A program made the translations under genes and the position numbers. Below, in pieces: positions 882-35,674 of a stretch of DNA of 64,000 bases; position 1 is the first letter of the stretch; each line of letters starts with the position of its first letter. The stretch comes from a virus, in IMG/VR virus record IMGVR_UViG_3300042691_022450; one strand, given 5' to 3'. The notes beneath the pieces were generated by a model. The model ran no database searches and was not told the origin of the DNA. It saw nothing but the letters and a program-made list of their open reading frames with translations.

Positions 882-1224
882 GCGAGTATGGTGGAATCGG
901 TAGACACACCAGACTTATGAAAATTGAGCCTCATTTGGGAAACCTTATGAGTGTAATTCCTCAAATTCGGTGAAACCTGTAAAATGGCAATACCGAGCGA
1001 AGTTGCAAGACAGTTGGAAAGACAACGGCTACCCAATGTGCTTCTAGAGAGGGTTGGAATTATCTAGAAAATGCAAAACGTGTAGAGACTAGACGGGGAA
1101 CACCTAAACTGAAAGGTATGGTGAAGGTATAGTCCAGACCACAAACCGAAAGGGTAGTGAAAACTATAGTGGTAAGAAAATCTGTTGGGCATTGCCCGTG
1201 GGAGTTCAAGTCTCCCTACTCGCA
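882..1224 (+). tRNA. trnL: tRNA-Leu (UAA), split by group I intron (exons 882-916 and 1177-1224)
   Basis: Joining ...CAGACTT to AAAATCTG... restores the CTTAAAA loop; long variable arm; acceptor GCGAGTA/TACTCGC. Confidence 0.9.
917..1176 (+). ncRNA. Group I self-splicing intron (cyanobacterial/plastid trnL type, IC3-like)
   Basis: Core motifs AATTGAGCC, AAATTCGGTGAAACC (P), GGCAATACCGAGC (Q), GTAGAGACTAGACGG (R), AAGGTATAGTCC (S); 5' exon ends in U and intron ends in G. Confidence 0.9.
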
Positions 1225-4091: not shown

Positions 4092-4182
4092 GGGAGAGTG
4101 GCTACTGTTGGCAATATGTGTAGCGGAAGTCTGTAAAACTTTTACATCGGAACCATCGGGGGTTCAATTCCCTCCTCTCTCA
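4092..4182 (+). tRNA. tRNA-Tyr (GUA), enlarged D loop
   Basis: GAAGT-CTGTAAA-ACTTT; long variable region. Confidence 0.85.
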
Positions 4183-7775: not shown

Positions 7776-7804
7776 TTGACATTCCGTCAAAACTTTGTTA
7801 TGAT
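7776..7804 (+). promoter_or_regulatory. Sigma70 promoter for Ro60-like gene
   Basis: TTGACA-17-TATGAT, preceded by a GTGCCA-N10-TGGCAC palindrome. Confidence 0.75.
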
Positions 7805-7821
7805 GAATAAGTACTCGATAA

Positions 7822-7880
7822 AAGATCAGGCAGCAATACAATACATTTTCCTTTCAAGAAAACCCATAAAAACTGATCTT
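7822..7880 (+). ncRNA. CAGCAA stem module A (Y-RNA-like candidate)
   Basis: AAGATCAG/CTGATCTT stem, CAGCAA, internal TTTTC-CTTTCAA-GAAAA hairpin. Confidence 0.65.
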
Positions 7881-7886
7881 GTATTA

Positions 7887-7940
7887 AAGTTAATTCAGCA
7901 ACACAACTTTGAATCTGTAAACTCAAAACAACATTAACTT
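7887..7940 (+). ncRNA. CAGCAA stem module B, abutting the RBS
   Basis: AAGTTAAT/ATTAACTT stem, CAGCAA, internal hairpin containing CTGTAAA. Confidence 0.6.
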
Positions 7941-7952
7941 GGAGAAAAAATT

Positions 7953-9419
7953 ATGACTTTCCTGACCGCACTTGAAACTGAACTGAACACCACTGAAACT
8001 CTCAATGGTGCCAAAGCATATAAATCTACTCTCAACAAATGTGTAGACCTGTTCGGTAAAATCTCTGCCTGTCGTAATGACATTCCACAGGCACGGAAAC
8101 TATTTGCTCACGCATATATGGAAGACCCTGAGACTGCGACTCGTATTCTCTTCAATGCCCGTGATATTCGTGGTGGGCAAGGAGAACGTGAAGTCTTCCG
8201 TAATCTATTCAAAGACCTTGTGAATGGGAATAGTGAAATTGCAACTAAACTTATTGAACTCATTCCTGTCTATGGTCGTTGGGATGACCTTCTAATTCTT
8301 GAAGGCACTGCTATCTGGGATAATGTTGTGGATGTTATCATCACGCAACTTGGTAAAGATGATGTTGCTCTGACCGCAGGGGAGAATGTTTCTCTGCTTG
8401 GTAAGTGGATGCCTTCTATCAATGCTTCTAGTGCTGATAGCAAACGTCTTGGTCGTGTGTTCGCAAAACGTCTTGAACTGAACGAACGTCAGTATCGTAA
8501 GTTCCTGACTGCTCTTCGTTTTCAAATTAAAATTGTGGAACAGAAGATGTGTTCCAAAGAATGGTCTGAGATTGACTACGAACATCTTCCTTCTCGTGCT
8601 GGATTTATGTATCGTAAGGCATTCGCAAAGCAGGATGCTACTCGTTACGCAGAATATTTGAGTGCCGTGGAGAAAGGTGATAAGAAAATCAATGCTGGAA
8701 CCATCTATCCTTATGAGATTGTAGATAAGTATCTCTACAAAGGTGGCAGTCAAGATAAGACTATTGACCTGATGTGGGAGGCACTGCCTAACTATATGGA
8801 AGGTCAAGAACTCAATGGTCTTGTGGTTGCCGATGTTTCTGGTAGTATGATGGGAACTCCAATGGCAGTTTCTATCTCTCTTGCGATGTATATTGCCGAA
8901 CGCAATACTGGTATTTGGAAAGATAAGTTCATCACTTTCTCTGAATCTCCTGAACTTCAATCCATCGTCGGTAATACTATCGGTGACCGTATTCGCAATC
9001 TTGCCAGTTCTTCTTGGGGATTCAATACTGACCTCAAAGCAGTATTTGAAAGTGTTCTGAATGCAGGAATCAAGAATAATGTTCCTGACGCAGAAATGCC
9101 TAAGAAACTTATCATTGTTTCTGATATGCAGTTTGACCAAGCGTGTAGTTCTAACAAACGCACCAACTTTGAGCAAATTCAGAAGATGTATCATAAGGCA
9201 GGATATGAGATGCCTGAACTTGTTTTCTGGAATGTGAATGCGATTGGGGGCAATGTTCCTATAACTATCCACGATACTGGAACTTGTCTGGTTTCAGGAT
9301 GTTCTCCTTCCATTCTGAAAAGTGTTCTGGGTGGTAAAACTATCACTCCTGTTGACGTGATGAAGGATGCGGTGTATGATGAACGTTATGCTCCTATCGG
9401 TGAGGCATTCAGTTCCTGA
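7953..9419 (+). CDS. DUF2828-type Ro60/TROVE-like protein with C-terminal vWA domain
   Basis: RDIRGGQGER, GRWDDL, GKWMPS motifs; vWA MIDAS DVSGSM, NTD, SDMQFD, FWN. Confidence 0.85.
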   Translation: MTFLTALETELNTTETLNGAKAYKSTLNKCVDLFGKISACRNDIPQARKLFAHAYMEDPETATRILFNARDIRGGQGEREVFRNLFKDLVNGNSEIATKLIELIPVYGRWDDLLILEGTAIWDNVVDVIITQLGKDDVALTAGENVSLLGKWMPSINASSADSKRLGRVFAKRLELNERQYRKFLTALRFQIKIVEQKMCSKEWSEIDYEHLPSRAGFMYRKAFAKQDATRYAEYLSAVEKGDKKINAGTIYPYEIVDKYLYKGGSQDKTIDLMWEALPNYMEGQELNGLVVADVSGSMMGTPMAVSISLAMYIAERNTGIWKDKFITFSESPELQSIVGNTIGDRIRNLASSSWGFNTDLKAVFESVLNAGIKNNVPDAEMPKKLIIVSDMQFDQACSSNKRTNFEQIQKMYHKAGYEMPELVFWNVNAIGGNVPITIHDTGTCLVSGCSPSILKSVLGGKTITPVDVMKDAVYDERYAPIGEAFSS

Positions 9420-9442
9420 ACTGACACAAGGGGGGGGGGAGG

Positions 9443-9472
9443 TTGACAAAACTCCCCAACCTGTAATATAAT
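9443..9472 (+). promoter_or_regulatory. Sigma70 promoter driving the ncRNA array
   Basis: TTGACA-18-TATAAT immediately before the first module. Confidence 0.7.
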
Positions 9473-9479
9473 AATTTTA

Positions 9480-9527
9480 TAGATGGTTCAGCAATTTTAC
9501 CCATTTTATAGGAAAAACAACCATCTA
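9480..9527 (+). ncRNA. CAGCAA module 1
   Basis: TAGATGGTT-CAGCAA...AACCATCTA. Confidence 0.7.
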
Positions 9528-9534
9528 GCAAACA

Positions 9535-9603
9535 AAGGTCTCTCAGCATTTCAATTTTCTCCAAACTCAAATCTGAGACTCTGAAAAACCTCAGTGAGAC
9601 CTT
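9535..9603 (+). ncRNA. CAGCA module 2
   Basis: AAGGTCTC-T-CAGCA...GAGACCTT with inner CTGAG/CTCAG hairpin. Confidence 0.65.
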
Positions 9604-9614
9604 GAAAAAACAAA

Positions 9615-9734
9615 GGGAACGTGGTGTAACGGTAGCATTAACAAAATCGGTAATCTTGTATAAGATTCGGACAGCAATTTCTATTACTTTTTCTGTAAAA
9701 AAAAAAGGTTCAGGTTCGAGTCCTGACGTTTCCA
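9615..9734 (+). ncRNA. tRNA-like RNA (Tyr GUA loop) with CAGCAA insert, module 3
   Basis: Acceptor GGGAACG/CGTTTCC, D arm, T arm TCAGG-TTCGAGT-CCTGA, insert AATCTT-gtat-AAGATT..CAGCAA, then TTTTT-CTGTAAA-AAAAA. Confidence 0.75.
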
Positions 9735-9735
9735 T

Positions 9736-9783
9736 TAGATGATTCAGCAATTTACTGCTTGGTTATGCAAACAAAATCATCTA
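9736..9783 (+). ncRNA. CAGCAA module 4
   Basis: TAGATGATT-CAGCAA...AATCATCTA. Confidence 0.7.
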
Positions 9784-9789
9784 GTTTAA

Positions 9790-9902
9790 AGGAAGGTAGC
9801 TCAGTTGGTAGAGCAACGTAAAATATATCTTGCCAAAGATATTCACAGCAATTAAACTGCATTGGGGGCCGTTGGTCGCAAGTTCGAATCTTGCCCTTCC
9901 TA
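9790..9902 (+). ncRNA. tRNA-like RNA (UGG loop) with 40-nt CAGCAA insert, module 5
   Basis: Canonical acceptor, D and T arms; anticodon stem ACG|insert 9819-9858|GC-ATTGGGG-GCCGT. Confidence 0.8.
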
Positions 9903-9906
9903 CTTA

Positions 9907-9953
9907 TAGATAGTTCAGCAATTTACCCATTTTATAGGAAAAACAACTATCTA
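9907..9953 (+). ncRNA. CAGCAA module 6 (near-copy of module 1)
   Basis: TAGATAGTT-CAGCAA...AACTATCTA; compensatory G-C to A-T change relative to module 1. Confidence 0.72.
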
Positions 9954-9963
9954 GAACAAATAA

Positions 9964-10042
9964 GAGATTATTCAGCAACTCCAAAGGATAACGGTTTATC
10001 AATAGGTAAACTTAGAGAGAATCGAATCTCTCAAATAATCTC
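9964..10042 (+). ncRNA. CAGCAA module 7
   Basis: GAGATTATT-CAGCAA...AATAATCTC with two inner hairpins. Confidence 0.68.
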
Positions 10043-10050
10043 GAAAATAC

Positions 10051-10164
10051 GGGGATGTAGCTCAGTTGGTAGAGCAACGTAAAATATATCTTGTCAAAGG
10101 ATATTCACAGCAATTAAATCGCATTCTAAGCCGTAAGTTACAGGTTCAAGTCCTGTCATCCCCT
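10051..10164 (+). ncRNA. tRNA-like RNA (UCU loop) with 41-nt CAGCAA insert, module 8
   Basis: Acceptor GGGGATG/CATCCCC; ACG|insert 10080-10120|GC-ATTCTAA-GCCGT; T arm intact. Confidence 0.8.
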
Positions 10165-10166
10165 TC

Positions 10167-10284
10167 GAGAATGTAGCCCAAATGGCAGAGGCACCGTTTA
10201 TAAAAAAGTCATCTTGTTGTTAAGATGCGTCAGCATTAAATAAAAAGGCACGATCCAGTGTAGGTTCGAATCCTACCATTCTCA
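10167..10284 (+). ncRNA. tRNA-like RNA (Leu-type body) with CAGCA insert, module 9
   Basis: Acceptor GAGAATG/CATTCTC, D and T arms; CATCTT..AAGATG hairpin then CAGCA; no clear anticodon loop. Confidence 0.72.
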
Positions 10285-10372
10285 TACACAAAGACCAGTT
10301 TTTAAACTGGTACATAATACTTCCAATGCTCCTTCAGACCTGCTATAATACACAGGTAATCAACGAAATCCA

Positions 10373-10552
10373 ATGAAACTTGTCGGTCTTGCTTTTGGTG
10401 TAATTGTCCTTGCTGTTGCTGGACTATTCTTTGAGGCATGGTTGCTTGGAGTGATTCTGTCTTGGTTTGGTGTGACACTGACATTCTGGCAGAACTTTGC
10501 CATTATCTTCCTTGCTAATGCTATTTTCAAATCTAACGTATCTTCCAAGTGA
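10373..10552 (+). CDS. Small membrane protein
   Basis: MKLVGLAFGVIVLAVAGLFFEAWLLGVILSWFG... hydrophobic; first gene after a promoter cassette. Confidence 0.75.
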   Translation: MKLVGLAFGVIVLAVAGLFFEAWLLGVILSWFGVTLTFWQNFAIIFLANAIFKSNVSSK

Positions 10553-10859: not shown

Positions 10860-11399
10860 ATGACCGAAAACTACCCCGAGTTCGTTCCTTTTCCTAAGAT
10901 TCCCCGTCTTCATAAAGAATGTGTAGTTACTGAAAAGATTGATGGAACTAATGGTATTATCTACATCACTGACGATGGAGATATGTTTATCGGAAGTCGC
11001 AATCGTTGGTTGAGTGCAGAGTCTGACAATTTTGGGTTTCATCGTTGGGCATCTGAAAATCAAGATGAACTGATGAAACTTGGTGCTGGTCGTCATCACG
11101 GAGAATGGTGGGGTAGTGGTATTCAACGAGGTTATAATCTACCCAAAGGTGAGAAAAGGTTCTCCTTGTTTAATGTGAGTATCTGGAATTATGAAAACAA
11201 ACCAGAGTGTTGCTATGTTGTTCCTACTCTTTATACTGGAGAGTTTAGCACTAATGAACTTGATGATGCGATGGATAAACTTTGGGATTATGGTTCTGTT
11301 GCCTCTCCAGGGTTTATGAATCCAGAAGGTGTGATGATTTTCCATTCTGCTGCGAATCATTATTTCAAGGCACCTTTTGATAAAAATCATAAGGGTTGA
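10860..11399 (+). CDS. RNA ligase (Rnl2-like nucleotidyltransferase domain)
   Basis: Motif I TEKIDGTN, SRNR, DNFGF, GEWWG, motif IV EGVM, terminal K. Confidence 0.85.
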   Translation: MTENYPEFVPFPKIPRLHKECVVTEKIDGTNGIIYITDDGDMFIGSRNRWLSAESDNFGFHRWASENQDELMKLGAGRHHGEWWGSGIQRGYNLPKGEKRFSLFNVSIWNYENKPECCYVVPTLYTGEFSTNELDDAMDKLWDYGSVASPGFMNPEGVMIFHSAANHYFKAPFDKNHKG

Positions 11400-35516: not shown

Positions 35517-35600
35517 TTCTTACGGGCATCAAAGGTCCAAACTTTGAATAAGACCCACACCTCCTATGCCTCTTCACAATGCACAAACCTGGAGGTTTAT

Positions 35601-35674
35601 GGGTTAGTAGCTCAGATGGATAGAGCAATTCACTTCTAATGAATTGGTCGGGGGTTCGAGTCCCTCCTAACCCG
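35601..35674 (+). tRNA. tRNA-Arg (UCU)
   Basis: ATTCA-CTTCTAA-TGAAT; GGATA D loop. Confidence 0.93.

What the first reader, a model, noticed from the sequence alone, without database searches (positions are those of the whole stretch)
9790..10164. tRNAs whose anticodon stem is split by a 40-41 nt insert; exact removal restores UGG and UCU cloverleafs
Seen: in modules 5 and 8 the 5' anticodon strand reads ACG|insert|GC. Deleting 9819-9858 or 10080-10120 yields perfect ACGGC-(ATTGGGG or ATTCTAA)-GCCGT arms. The two inserts are nearly identical while acceptor stems and anticodons differ. The insert is far too short for a group I/II intron and is not at position 37/38. Inference: either a new protein-spliced tRNA intron at 29/30 (an RNA ligase lies ~700 bp away), or unspliced RNAs with a protein handle displaying interchangeable anticodon loops.
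Basis: partly seen in the sequence, partly recalled or inferred. Interest (0 to 1): 0.85.

Follow-up and report, generated by a model that had tools for sequence, protein, structure and literature searches.

The report
tRNA-shaped Y RNAs of phage Ro60
Two phage "tRNA genes" split by a 40-base insert are most likely not intron-containing tRNAs. They look like small partner RNAs of a Ro60-like phage protein: whole tRNA shapes that carry a protein-binding handle and show a real-looking, fast-changing anticodon loop.

Summary
Window 9790-9902 and 10051-10164 are full tRNA cloverleaves whose anticodon stem is split after position 29 by near-identical 40 and 41 nt inserts. Conceptual removal gives perfect Pro-UGG and Arg-UCU arms.

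The insert is probably not an intron. It is a conserved module (A-rich linker, covarying hairpin, CAGCAA) that also stands alone as hairpins in the same array. The array lies just downstream of a gene whose predicted fold is Ro60/TROVE plus vWA (Pfam DUF2828).

I collected about 100 distinct relatives beside this gene family.
- The module enters the anticodon arm anywhere from 26/27 to 31/32, and 44 of 100 copies restore no canonical arm.
- Circularly permuted copies with YrlA topology keep the same three-way junction, with compensatory changes.
- Near-identical scaffolds carry different anticodons in 25 of 40 close pairs, against 0 of 46 pairs of ordinary tRNAs from the same loci. U33 and the 36/37 rule persist.
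- No splicing endonuclease gene was found, and the nearby ligase is not syntenic.

Best reading: unspliced, tRNA-shaped Y-RNA partners of a phage Ro60-like protein. The scan met this class before in other genomes. I found no paper that describes it.

The parts
7953..9419 (+). Gene for a 488-aa Ro60-like protein (helical TROVE-like ring plus vWA domain; Pfam DUF2828 + DUF7788). Proposed protein partner of the RNAs.
   Evidence: Pfam hits at 1.9e-37 and 3.7e-51. AlphaFold2 model, pLDDT 82. Best PDB fold matches are TROVE/Ro60 structures, E 4e-8 to 6e-5. Homologues occur in 709 phage records; the mycobacteriophage ones are annotated 'Ro-like RNA binding protein'.
9443..9472 (+). Consensus sigma-70-type promoter in front of the RNA array.
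   Evidence: 12 of 12 hexamer matches, spacer 18.
9480..9527 (+). Free-standing handle module 1: a 9-bp stem whose 5' strand runs into CAGCAA.
   Evidence: Read from the sequence. Exact motif match at 9487-9496.
9538..9601 (+). Free-standing handle module 2 (stem followed by CAGCAT).
   Evidence: Read from the sequence.
9615..9734 (+). tRNA-like unit 3. The module enters before position 27. An intact U/A 5-bp stem carries a loop with anticodon GUA.
   Evidence: Rfam tRNA 37 bits. Parse. Close relatives carry GCA or CCA instead.
9736..9783 (+). Free-standing handle module 4.
   Evidence: Sequence. Motif at 9743-9752.
9790..9902 (+). tRNA-shaped unit 5, the first RNA of the finding. Full cloverleaf, loop with anticodon UGG.
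   Evidence: Model R1 scores 121 bits.
9819..9858 (+). Handle module inside unit 5: 6-nt A-rich linker, 7-bp hairpin with tetraloop, 3-nt spacer, CAGCAA, 7-nt linker.
   Evidence: Hairpin covariation.
9907..9953 (+). Free-standing handle module 6.
   Evidence: Sequence. Motif at 9914-9923.
9963..10031 (+). Free-standing handle module 7.
   Evidence: Sequence. Motif at 9971-9980.
10051..10164 (+). tRNA-shaped unit 8, the second RNA of the finding. Full cloverleaf, loop with anticodon UCU, U at the discriminator position, no A20.
   Evidence: Model R1 scores 124 bits. Contrast with the ordinary tRNA-Arg at 35601-35674.
10080..10120 (+). Handle module inside unit 8.
10167..10284 (+). tRNA-like unit 9. 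Acceptor, D and T arms are intact; the module replaces most of the anticodon arm and no anticodon loop can be restored.
   Evidence: Rfam tRNA 36 bits. Best split gives only 3 of 5 pairs.
7822..7940 (+). Two further handle modules in the leader of the Ro60-like gene, after the promoter at 7776-7804.
   Evidence: Sequence. Promoter.
10860..11399 (+). 179-aa RNA ligase (adenylyltransferase domain only). A neighbour in this window, not a conserved part of the system.
   Evidence: Pfam PF09414, 1.4e-12. No homologue within 4 kb of the Ro60-like gene in 34 related loci.

Best explanation
The two RNAs are partner RNAs (Y-RNA analogues) of the phage Ro60-like DUF2828 protein encoded just upstream. 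They are not intron-containing tRNA genes.

Proposed mechanism (inferred):
- The array 9480-10284 is transcribed from its own promoter.
- It is cut into units, the tRNA-shaped ones presumably by RNase P and RNase Z.
- Each tRNA-shaped unit folds into a normal L-shaped body.
- From the 5' strand of its anticodon stem a handle protrudes: A-rich linker, short helix, unpaired CAGCAA. The Ro60-like protein binds this handle.
- The split anticodon stem still closes as the third arm of a three-way junction. The particle therefore shows a genuine-looking anticodon loop next to the protein.

The anticodon triplet changes quickly between related phages while the scaffold stays the same. The loop therefore seems to be read by something other than the translation system's fixed amino-acid identity rules. 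The most plausible readers are host factors that recognise anticodon loops, such as tRNA-cleaving defence nucleases.

Shown here: the anatomy, the family, the gene linkage, the permuted relatives and the anticodon switching.
Inferred: protein binding, absence of splicing, and the decoy-like role.
For: 1. Protein partner. The gene at 7953-9419 has the Ro60 fold. It belongs to a family present in 709 phage records. All six fuller phage records that hold these RNAs also hold a DUF2828 gene (4 of 4, 2 of 2), against 0 of 14 control genomes. In mycobacteriophage LeBron, a YrlA-like RNA lies 125 nt after the homologous gene.

2. The insert is a module, not filler. All but two of the 70 family RNAs examined carry a CAGCAA-type motif preceded by a hairpin (38 distinct covarying stems) and a mostly 2-4 nt spacer. 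The same motif heads four free hairpins in this array.

3. Variable entry point. Among 56 restorable copies the split lies after position 26, 28, 29 or 31. 44 of 100 distinct copies restore no canonical arm.

4. Circular permutation. L294, L272, L268, L061, L066, L103, L283, L292 and L304 run in the order: handle strand, CAGCAA, linker, 3' half of the tRNA, closed acceptor stem, 5' half, A-rich linker, complementary handle strand. Linker lengths match and the same split stem is kept. L272 and L268 differ by a compensatory change in the handle helix. The core of L294 matches Rfam YrlA at E 4e-5.

5. Anticodon switching. 25 of 40 pairs that are at least 90% identical outside the loop differ in anticodon. 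For ordinary tRNAs of the same loci the figure is 0 of 46. The unit-5 scaffold carries UGG, UGU, GGA or GGU, and a closely related scaffold (GGGGAGG acceptor, identical insert, 93% identical outside the loop) carries UCG. The unit-3 scaffold carries GUA, GCA or CCA.

6. Missing identity elements. The Arg-type copy lacks A20 and has U73. The Pro-type copy has A1-U72. The window's ordinary tRNA-Arg and tRNA-Pro have A20/G73 and C1-G72/A73. A GGA (Ser) anticodon sits on a body with no long variable arm.

7. Redundancy. Ordinary tRNAs with UGG, UCU and GUA anticodons exist in the same window.

8. No splicing machinery. There is no tRNA-intron endonuclease domain in 5 records, and RtcB in only 1 of 5. 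The ligase is not syntenic.
Against: - Removing the insert gives a flawless anticodon arm in 56 of 100 copies, with U33 and a purine at 37. Position 37 follows the tRNA rule: A after U36 in 30/30, G after G36 in 16/18, A after A36 in 7/7.
- GUU copies keep the Asn-type G73 in 12 of 17 cases, against 2 of 39 for other anticodons. BUCT-ZZ01 encodes CCA after both of its copies. These features would also suit a tRNA that is eventually spliced and charged.
- Nearest-neighbour folding does not predict the split stem in the unspliced RNA. Its formation would need stacking or protein help.
- No binding, expression or processing data exist for this phage.
Confidence: 0.7

Rival explanations
1. The inserts are a new kind of protein-spliced bacterial or phage tRNA intron at 29/30. 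An endonuclease recognises the handle or junction, cuts at both stem junctions, and an RNA ligase joins the halves to give working tRNA-Pro and tRNA-Arg. Permuted relatives would mature through circular intermediates, as in some red algae.
For: Exact restoration of canonical arms with a covarying split stem. Canonical U33, the 36/37 rule and G73 with GUU. Encoded CCA in BUCT-ZZ01. An RNA-ligase family gene in all five phage records checked and one next to this array. The split stem is not predicted to be stable before removal.
Against: - The entry point varies from 26/27 to 31/32, and 44 of 100 copies cannot be restored.
- The same module occurs in free hairpins with no tRNA around it.
- By inspection, no conserved pairing links the two junctions. 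The 5' side is constant and A-rich; the 3' side varies.
- No tRNA-intron endonuclease domain in 5 records. The ligase is not syntenic.
- Anticodons switch amino-acid class on constant bodies that lack the matching identity elements.
- No uninterrupted allele of this scaffold turned up in 2.2 Mb of related loci.
Confidence: 0.13
2. The RNAs work in translation without splicing, as unusual tRNAs that carry an extra arm. The Ro60-like protein acts as chaperone or protector, for example shielding the anticodon stem from host nucleases.
For: Complete tRNA tertiary-core nucleotides are conserved: U8, A14, G18, G19, T54, T55, C56, A58. Anticodon loops are canonical. True tRNA ends sit at the acceptor stem in this window.
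Against: An arm leaving the 5' strand of the anticodon stem would clash with the ribosomal decoding and P sites (established tRNA-ribosome structures; my knowledge, not tested here). The Arg-type and Pro-type copies lack the matching identity elements. Anticodon switching to a Ser anticodon on a class I body argues against faithful charging. Permuted relatives have no free acceptor end.
Confidence: 0.05
3. These are decaying tRNA pseudogenes hit by a small repeated element. The module would be a mobile or recombinogenic repeat with no RNA-level role.
For: GenBank annotators call the homologues tRNA-Pseudo or tRNA-OTHER. Some copies have non-canonical loops: C37, 8-9 nt loops, or no arm.
Against: Compensatory changes maintain every helix, including the hairpin inside the insert and the stem split by it. 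All seven acceptor pairs form in nearly all 100 copies. The system persists next to one gene family from cyanophages to Aeromonas and huge phages. The array has its own consensus promoter.
Confidence: 0.04

Closest known systems
YrlA-type bacterial and phage Y RNAs with Ro60/Rsr (Rfam RF02553; Chen et al. 2014, PMC4201824)
   Same: Both are small RNAs encoded beside, and on the same strand as, a Ro60-fold protein gene. Both combine a protein-binding stem module with a tRNA-like domain that has D, T and acceptor arms and the tRNA tertiary-core nucleotides. Permuted relatives of the window RNAs have exactly the YrlA chain order, and one matches the YrlA core at E 4e-5. A YrlA-like RNA follows the homologous gene in mycobacteriophage LeBron.
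   Different: The window copies are not permuted: their ends lie at the acceptor stem, as in a real tRNA, and the handle is an internal hairpin. They keep a full anticodon stem-loop with canonical, switching anticodons, which YrlA lacks. The handle motif is CAGCAA, not the GNCGAA-type motif described for Rsr binding. The Rfam YrlA score in the window is 25 bits against a threshold of 69, and only across two adjacent units. The protein is the DUF2828 branch and gives no Pfam TROVE hit.
Bas63 gp130, a Ro60-like counter-defence protein of a Felix O1-type coliphage (PhageMaP preprint, 10.1101/2024.10.10.617714)
   Same: Felix O1-type phages carry homologues of the window protein at about 36% identity. 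The preprint reports Ro60 structural similarity for gp130. It notes that the gene lies directly upstream of annotated tRNAs and suggests some of them may be Y RNAs. It shows that gp130 counters the Ppl defence.
   Different: The preprint describes no partner RNA, handle motif or anticodon behaviour. Whether the cyanophage protein counters any defence is unknown. I did not align gp130 itself.
Archaeal non-canonical tRNA introns (bulge-helix-bulge type, including position 29/30) and permuted tRNA genes of red algae (from my knowledge, not checked in papers here)
   Same: A short insert inside the anticodon stem whose exact removal restores the tRNA. Both chain orders exist.
   Different: I see no bulge-helix-bulge pairing at the junctions. 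No splicing endonuclease gene is present. The insert is a conserved module that also stands alone. Hosts and viruses here are bacterial.
Group I introns in bacterial and phage tRNA genes
   Same: An interrupted tRNA gene in a cyanophage. This window even holds a real group I intron at 907-1158.
   Different: 40 nt is far below ribozyme size. The insert sits in the stem, not the anticodon loop. No Rfam ribozyme or intron match appears in 9380-10400 even at E up to 5.

Membership tests
YrlA-type Y RNA (RF02553) | Encoded close to, and on the same strand as, a Ro60-type protein gene | tested here: met
   The array starts 60 nt after the stop of a gene with the Ro60 fold. The same linkage holds in L005-L021, L029, L034, L191-L201, L235-L251 and others.
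YrlA-type Y RNA (RF02553) | tRNA-like domain with D, T and acceptor arms and tertiary-core nucleotides | tested here: met
   Rfam tRNA 52-53 bits. U8, A14, G18, T54, T55 and A58 are invariant, and G19 and C56 nearly so, in 27 homologues.
YrlA-type Y RNA (RF02553) | Chain order: RNA ends form the protein-binding stem and the acceptor stem is closed by a loop | tested here: not met
   In the window copies the ends lie at the acceptor stem and the handle is an internal hairpin. The feature is met only in relatives such as L294, L103 and L283.
YrlA-type Y RNA (RF02553) | Rsr-binding motif GNCGAAN0-1G near the 5' end (Chen et al. 2014) | tested here: not met
   The conserved motif is CAGCAA or close variants in 68 of 70 copies. 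The published motif is quoted.
YrlA-type Y RNA (RF02553) | Rfam gathering score (69 bits) | tested here: not met
   The best window hit is 25 bits and spans two adjacent units whose acceptor strands do not pair.
YrlA-type Y RNA (RF02553) | Physical binding to the Ro60-type protein | not testable with these tools
   Needs pull-down or gel-shift experiments.
Functional (decoding) tRNA gene | Cloverleaf above the Rfam tRNA threshold | tested here: met
   52.4 and 53.3 bits against a threshold of 29.
Functional (decoding) tRNA gene | Identity elements that match the anticodon | tested here: not met
   The UCU copy has U20 and U73; the window's ordinary tRNA-Arg has A20 and G73. The UGG copy has A1-U72; the ordinary tRNA-Pro has C1-G72. 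Which elements matter is taken from E. coli work (my knowledge).
Functional (decoding) tRNA gene | Anticodon conserved among close orthologues | tested here: not met
   25 of 40 close pairs differ, against 0 of 46 for ordinary tRNAs of the same loci.
Protein-spliced tRNA intron (archaeal/eukaryal type) | Bulge-helix-bulge or other conserved structure that pairs the two splice junctions | tested here: not met
   By inspection of alignments A3 and A8. The bases after the 5' junction are nearly constant and A-rich; those before the 3' junction vary and are not complementary to them. No formal motif search was run.
Protein-spliced tRNA intron (archaeal/eukaryal type) | Splicing endonuclease available | tested here: not met
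   PF01974 is absent from five phage records but found in 4 archaeal controls. Host genomes were not searched.
Protein-spliced tRNA intron (archaeal/eukaryal type) | Spliced product exists | not testable with these tools
   Needs RNA sequencing of infected cells.
Ro60/TROVE protein (for the neighbouring gene) | Helical ring plus vWA domain fold | tested here: met
   Foldseek top ten hits are all TROVE/Ro60 structures, TM about 0.5 over the whole length.
Ro60/TROVE protein (for the neighbouring gene) | Sequence match to Pfam TROVE (PF05731) | tested here: not met
   Only DUF2828 and DUF7788 hit. No PDB sequence match. TROVE is absent from two related viral records that hold DUF2828.

The most novel reading that the evidence does not exclude
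The Ro60-like protein and these RNAs form a phage particle that presents authentic anticodon loops as bait or sensors for host factors that attack tRNA anticodon loops, such as defence nucleases. Each phage lineage retunes the displayed anticodon by point mutation, and position 37 follows the rule for the new anticodon, as host defences change. This would be an RNA-level arms-race organ built from a tRNA and a Y-RNA handle.
Probability: 0.3. Interest if true: 0.85.

Novelty: new variant of a known kind. Interest (0 to 1): 0.7.

Why it matters
Ro60 and its Y RNAs are conserved from bacteria to humans, yet it is still unclear why bacterial Y RNAs imitate tRNA.

In this phage branch of the system the imitation is complete. 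The RNA keeps a working-looking anticodon loop, and only the anticodon triplet evolves fast. That points to recognition of the anticodon loop as the reason for the mimicry. It also offers a testable link to tRNA-targeting anti-phage defences, since a homologous protein already counters one defence in a coliphage.

There is a practical side too. These genes are now annotated as pseudo-tRNAs or missed altogether. Tallies of phage tRNAs and searches for tRNA introns will misread them.

Tried and rejected
- **Own genome.** The window's assembly is not held, so whole-genome counts for this phage were not possible.
- **PDB sequence search** with the protein found nothing. Only the fold search was informative.
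- **First pattern scans.** I first dismissed the 14-mer and gapped-pattern scans of viral contigs as chance, because model R1 found nothing there. For the gapped pattern this held for the two matches I read. Several 14-mer and 18-mer loci turned out to hold permuted relatives, which R1 (built for the unpermuted order) cannot see.
- **Uninterrupted allele.** A regular-expression search for an uninterrupted form of the scaffold in 2.2 Mb of fetched loci found none.
- **Ligase linkage.** Tested by tblastn and rejected.
- **YrlA across units 8 and 9.** This reading of the window is rejected because the two acceptor strands pair at only 5 of 7 positions, while each unit's own strands pair at 7 of 7.
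- **Thermodynamic folding** neither supports nor excludes the split stem.
- **Literature searches.** Searches for DUF2828, YrlA plus phage, TROVE plus cyanophage, and Ro60 plus anti-defence found no description of these RNAs.
- **Retron anti-defence protein Rad.** It is a 189-aa protein and unrelated.
- **Chen et al. supplement.** The tables listing phages with YrlA are not held.

Full report
**What is there**

The window is a cyanophage-like genome segment. It holds 25 tRNAs called by ARAGORN, a cyanobacterial-type permuted tmRNA and a group I intron.

Between 9480 and 10284, after a perfect sigma-70-type promoter at 9443-9472, lies an ORF-free array of nine RNA units.

Each is a 7-bp acceptor stem, a standard D arm, three bases of the anticodon stem, a 40 or 41 nt insert, two more stem bases, a 7-nt loop, an uninterrupted 3' stem strand, a variable loop, a T arm and the 3' acceptor strand.
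- A script that tried every split point found 5 of 5 Watson-Crick pairs only for a split after position 29.
- The Rfam tRNA model scores both units above threshold with a local insertion.
- ARAGORN does not call them.

**What the insert is**

Both inserts have the same anatomy: a 6-nt A-rich linker, a 7-bp hairpin with a 4-5 nt loop, three bases, CAGCAA, then a 7-8 nt linker.
- The same motif, preceded by a helix, heads four free-standing hairpins in the array (9487, 9743, 9914, 9971) and two more in the leader of the upstream gene.
- Units 3 and 9 are also tRNA-like, at 36-37 bits, and carry the module. Unit 3 has it before an intact 5-bp stem. Unit 9 has lost any recognisable anticodon arm.

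**The neighbour**

The 488-aa ORF that ends 60 nt before the array hits Pfam DUF2828 and DUF7788.
- A 16-sequence AlphaFold2 model (pLDDT 82) finds TROVE/Ro60 structures as its ten best PDB matches. They include a Thermus phage Ro60 and the Xenopus and Deinococcus proteins, followed by vWA domains.
- tblastn finds homologues in 709 phage records, including Felix O1-type coliphages. Mycobacteriophage homologues are annotated 'Ro-like RNA binding protein'.
- In phage LeBron a YrlA-like RNA lies 125 nt after that gene.

**Relatives of the RNAs**

DNA similarity alone found interrupted tRNAs in Synechococcus phages B3, B23 and BUCT-ZZ01, in an Aeromonas T4-like phage and in a 735-kb phage.
- The four records I checked (B3, BUCT-ZZ01, the Aeromonas phage and the 735-kb phage) each hold a DUF2828 gene, against 0 of 14 control genomes.
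- I built a covariance model from seven copies. I ran it on DUF2828 loci from viral contigs and on metagenome loci that hold an 18-mer from the D arm and insert boundary. This gave 100 distinct tRNA-like RNAs of 101-136 nt, nearly all just downstream or upstream of the gene on the same strand.
- In a 27-sequence alignment every helix covaries, including the stem split by the insert and the hairpin inside it.
- All but two of the 70 examined carry a CAGCAA-type motif preceded by a hairpin, with 38 distinct stem sequences.

**Why not an intron**

1. The module enters the anticodon arm at different places: after 26, 28, 29 or 31. Only 56 of 100 copies give a perfect stem with a canonical loop when something is removed.
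2. The module exists without any tRNA around it.
3. I see no conserved pairing between the two junctions, so no bulge-helix-bulge type structure (inspection).
4. No tRNA-intron endonuclease domain is present in five phage records. RtcB occurs in one, next to its DUF2828 gene. The ligase near this array has no counterpart near the gene in 34 other loci.
5. No uninterrupted allele of the scaffold was seen.
6. Circular permutation is the most telling point.
   - Loci L294, L272, L268, L061, L066, L103, L283, L292 and L304 hold permuted versions. Their order is: one handle strand, CAGCAA, a 7-8 nt linker, the two stem bases, loop, 3' stem strand, T arm, acceptor stem closed by 3-12 nt (or by a long helix), D arm, the three stem bases, the A-rich linker, and the complementary handle strand.
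   - Element for element, this is the window RNA with the chain opened at the hairpin loop and closed at the acceptor end.
   - L272 and L268 differ by a compensatory pair in the handle helix.
   - This is the chain order of bacterial YrlA, and the core of L294 matches Rfam YrlA.
   - A design kept through permutation argues that the whole three-way junction, handle included, is the working form.

**Anticodon behaviour**

After conceptual removal the loops look genuine. U33 and a purine at 37 are present in all 56 by selection. Position 37 tracks position 36 as in real tRNAs: A after U in 30/30, G after G in 16/18, A after A in 7/7.

Yet the triplet is unstable.
- The unit-5 scaffold carries UGG, UGU, GGA or GGU. 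A closely related scaffold, with a different acceptor stem but an identical insert, carries UCG.
- The unit-3 scaffold carries GUA, GCA or CCA.
- In the unit-3 group, 2 of the 5 variable columns among 120 are anticodon positions.
- Of pairs at least 90% identical outside the loop, 25 of 40 differ in anticodon. The figure is 0 of 46 for ordinary tRNAs from the same loci, which differ only at the wobble base even at 85% identity. The pairs are not independent, so the Fisher value of 1e-11 overstates the case. The contrast is still plain.
- The window's UCU copy lacks A20 and the UGG copy lacks G72. The window's ordinary tRNA-Arg and tRNA-Pro have both.
- A Ser anticodon sits on a body without the long variable arm.
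- Ordinary tRNAs for UGG, UCU and GUA exist in the window.

These RNAs are therefore not constrained as decoders. Their loops are still kept tRNA-like, which points to selection on what the loop looks like.

**What remains open**

Several features fit a chargeable tRNA equally well: the perfect restorable arms, G73 in 12 of 17 GUU copies and the encoded CCA in BUCT-ZZ01. Nearest-neighbour folding does not close the split stem on its own. I give splicing about one chance in eight.

The function of the particle is inferred. By analogy with Ro60/Y RNA it is an RNA-handling particle. A homologous Felix O1-type protein, Bas63 gp130, counters the Ppl defence, and its discoverers guessed that nearby 'tRNAs' might be Y RNAs. 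The switching anticodons suggest bait or sensing for anticodon-directed host factors. That is a hypothesis.

**Novelty**

YrlA-type tRNA mimicry beside Ro60 is known (Chen et al. 2014). Three things are not described in Rfam or in any paper I could search:
- this DUF2828-linked handle;
- the unpermuted whole-tRNA form;
- the retained, canonical but fast-switching anticodon loop.

Earlier notes of this scan report the same protein-plus-handle class in at least ten other genomes. I reached the same reading independently from this window's relatives, and checked the one paper those notes led me to.

Noticed in passing
window 4092-4182: This looks like an ordinary class II tRNA-Tyr (anticodon GUA, long variable arm, 7-bp acceptor stem with one G-U). 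ARAGORN and the Rfam gathering scan both miss it. It makes the GUA-bearing unit 3 redundant.
   Followed up: partly
window 35560-35596: An Rfam abiF RNA motif (46.9 bits, above threshold) sits 4 nt upstream of the ordinary tRNA-Arg(UCU) at 35601-35674.
   Followed up: no
L312:210-339, L306:330-460, L270:1265-1393: These have the same scaffold and the same 29/30 entry point, but a different 57-58 nt insert without CAGCAA. The insert starts with the same A-rich linker and ends in a UACUU-type motif just before the stem. Permuted relatives with a similar UUACAU-type motif occur in L273, L305, L291 and L269. This may be a second handle class, perhaps for another protein. No DUF2828 gene lies in those short loci, except for a weak hit in L291.
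   Followed up: partly
L311:303-416: In a contig whose protein is 98% identical, the unit-8 body carries the 5' acceptor strand of unit 5, so its acceptor stem pairs at only 4 of 7 positions. This is either a recombinant or an assembly chimera.
   Followed up: no
LR756501.1 342463-343182 (record coordinates, minus strand): In the 735-kb phage a short RtcB-like ORF lies directly next to the DUF2828 gene (341431-342156). This recalls the bacterial rsr-rtcB operon.
   Followed up: no
L272:9330-9040 (minus strand) and L268:4150-3700 (minus strand): In L272 a small ORF of about 75 codons lies between the permuted RNA and the DUF2828 gene. In L268 a promoter-like sequence is repeated on both sides of the permuted RNA. 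In both, the closed acceptor stem is extended by a helix of about 20 bp that still contains an encoded CCA.
   Followed up: no
window 907-1158: A group I intron (Rfam 58.8 bits) lies just after the tRNA-Ile(UAU) call at 806-880. The interrupted host gene was not worked out. No tRNA-Asn was found in the window.
   Followed up: no
window 9669-9725 and 10099-10155: Weak sub-threshold Rfam matches to Dictyostelium Class I RNA (17.6 and 21.8 bits) overlap the 3' part of the handle module and the T arm of units 3 and 8.
   Followed up: no
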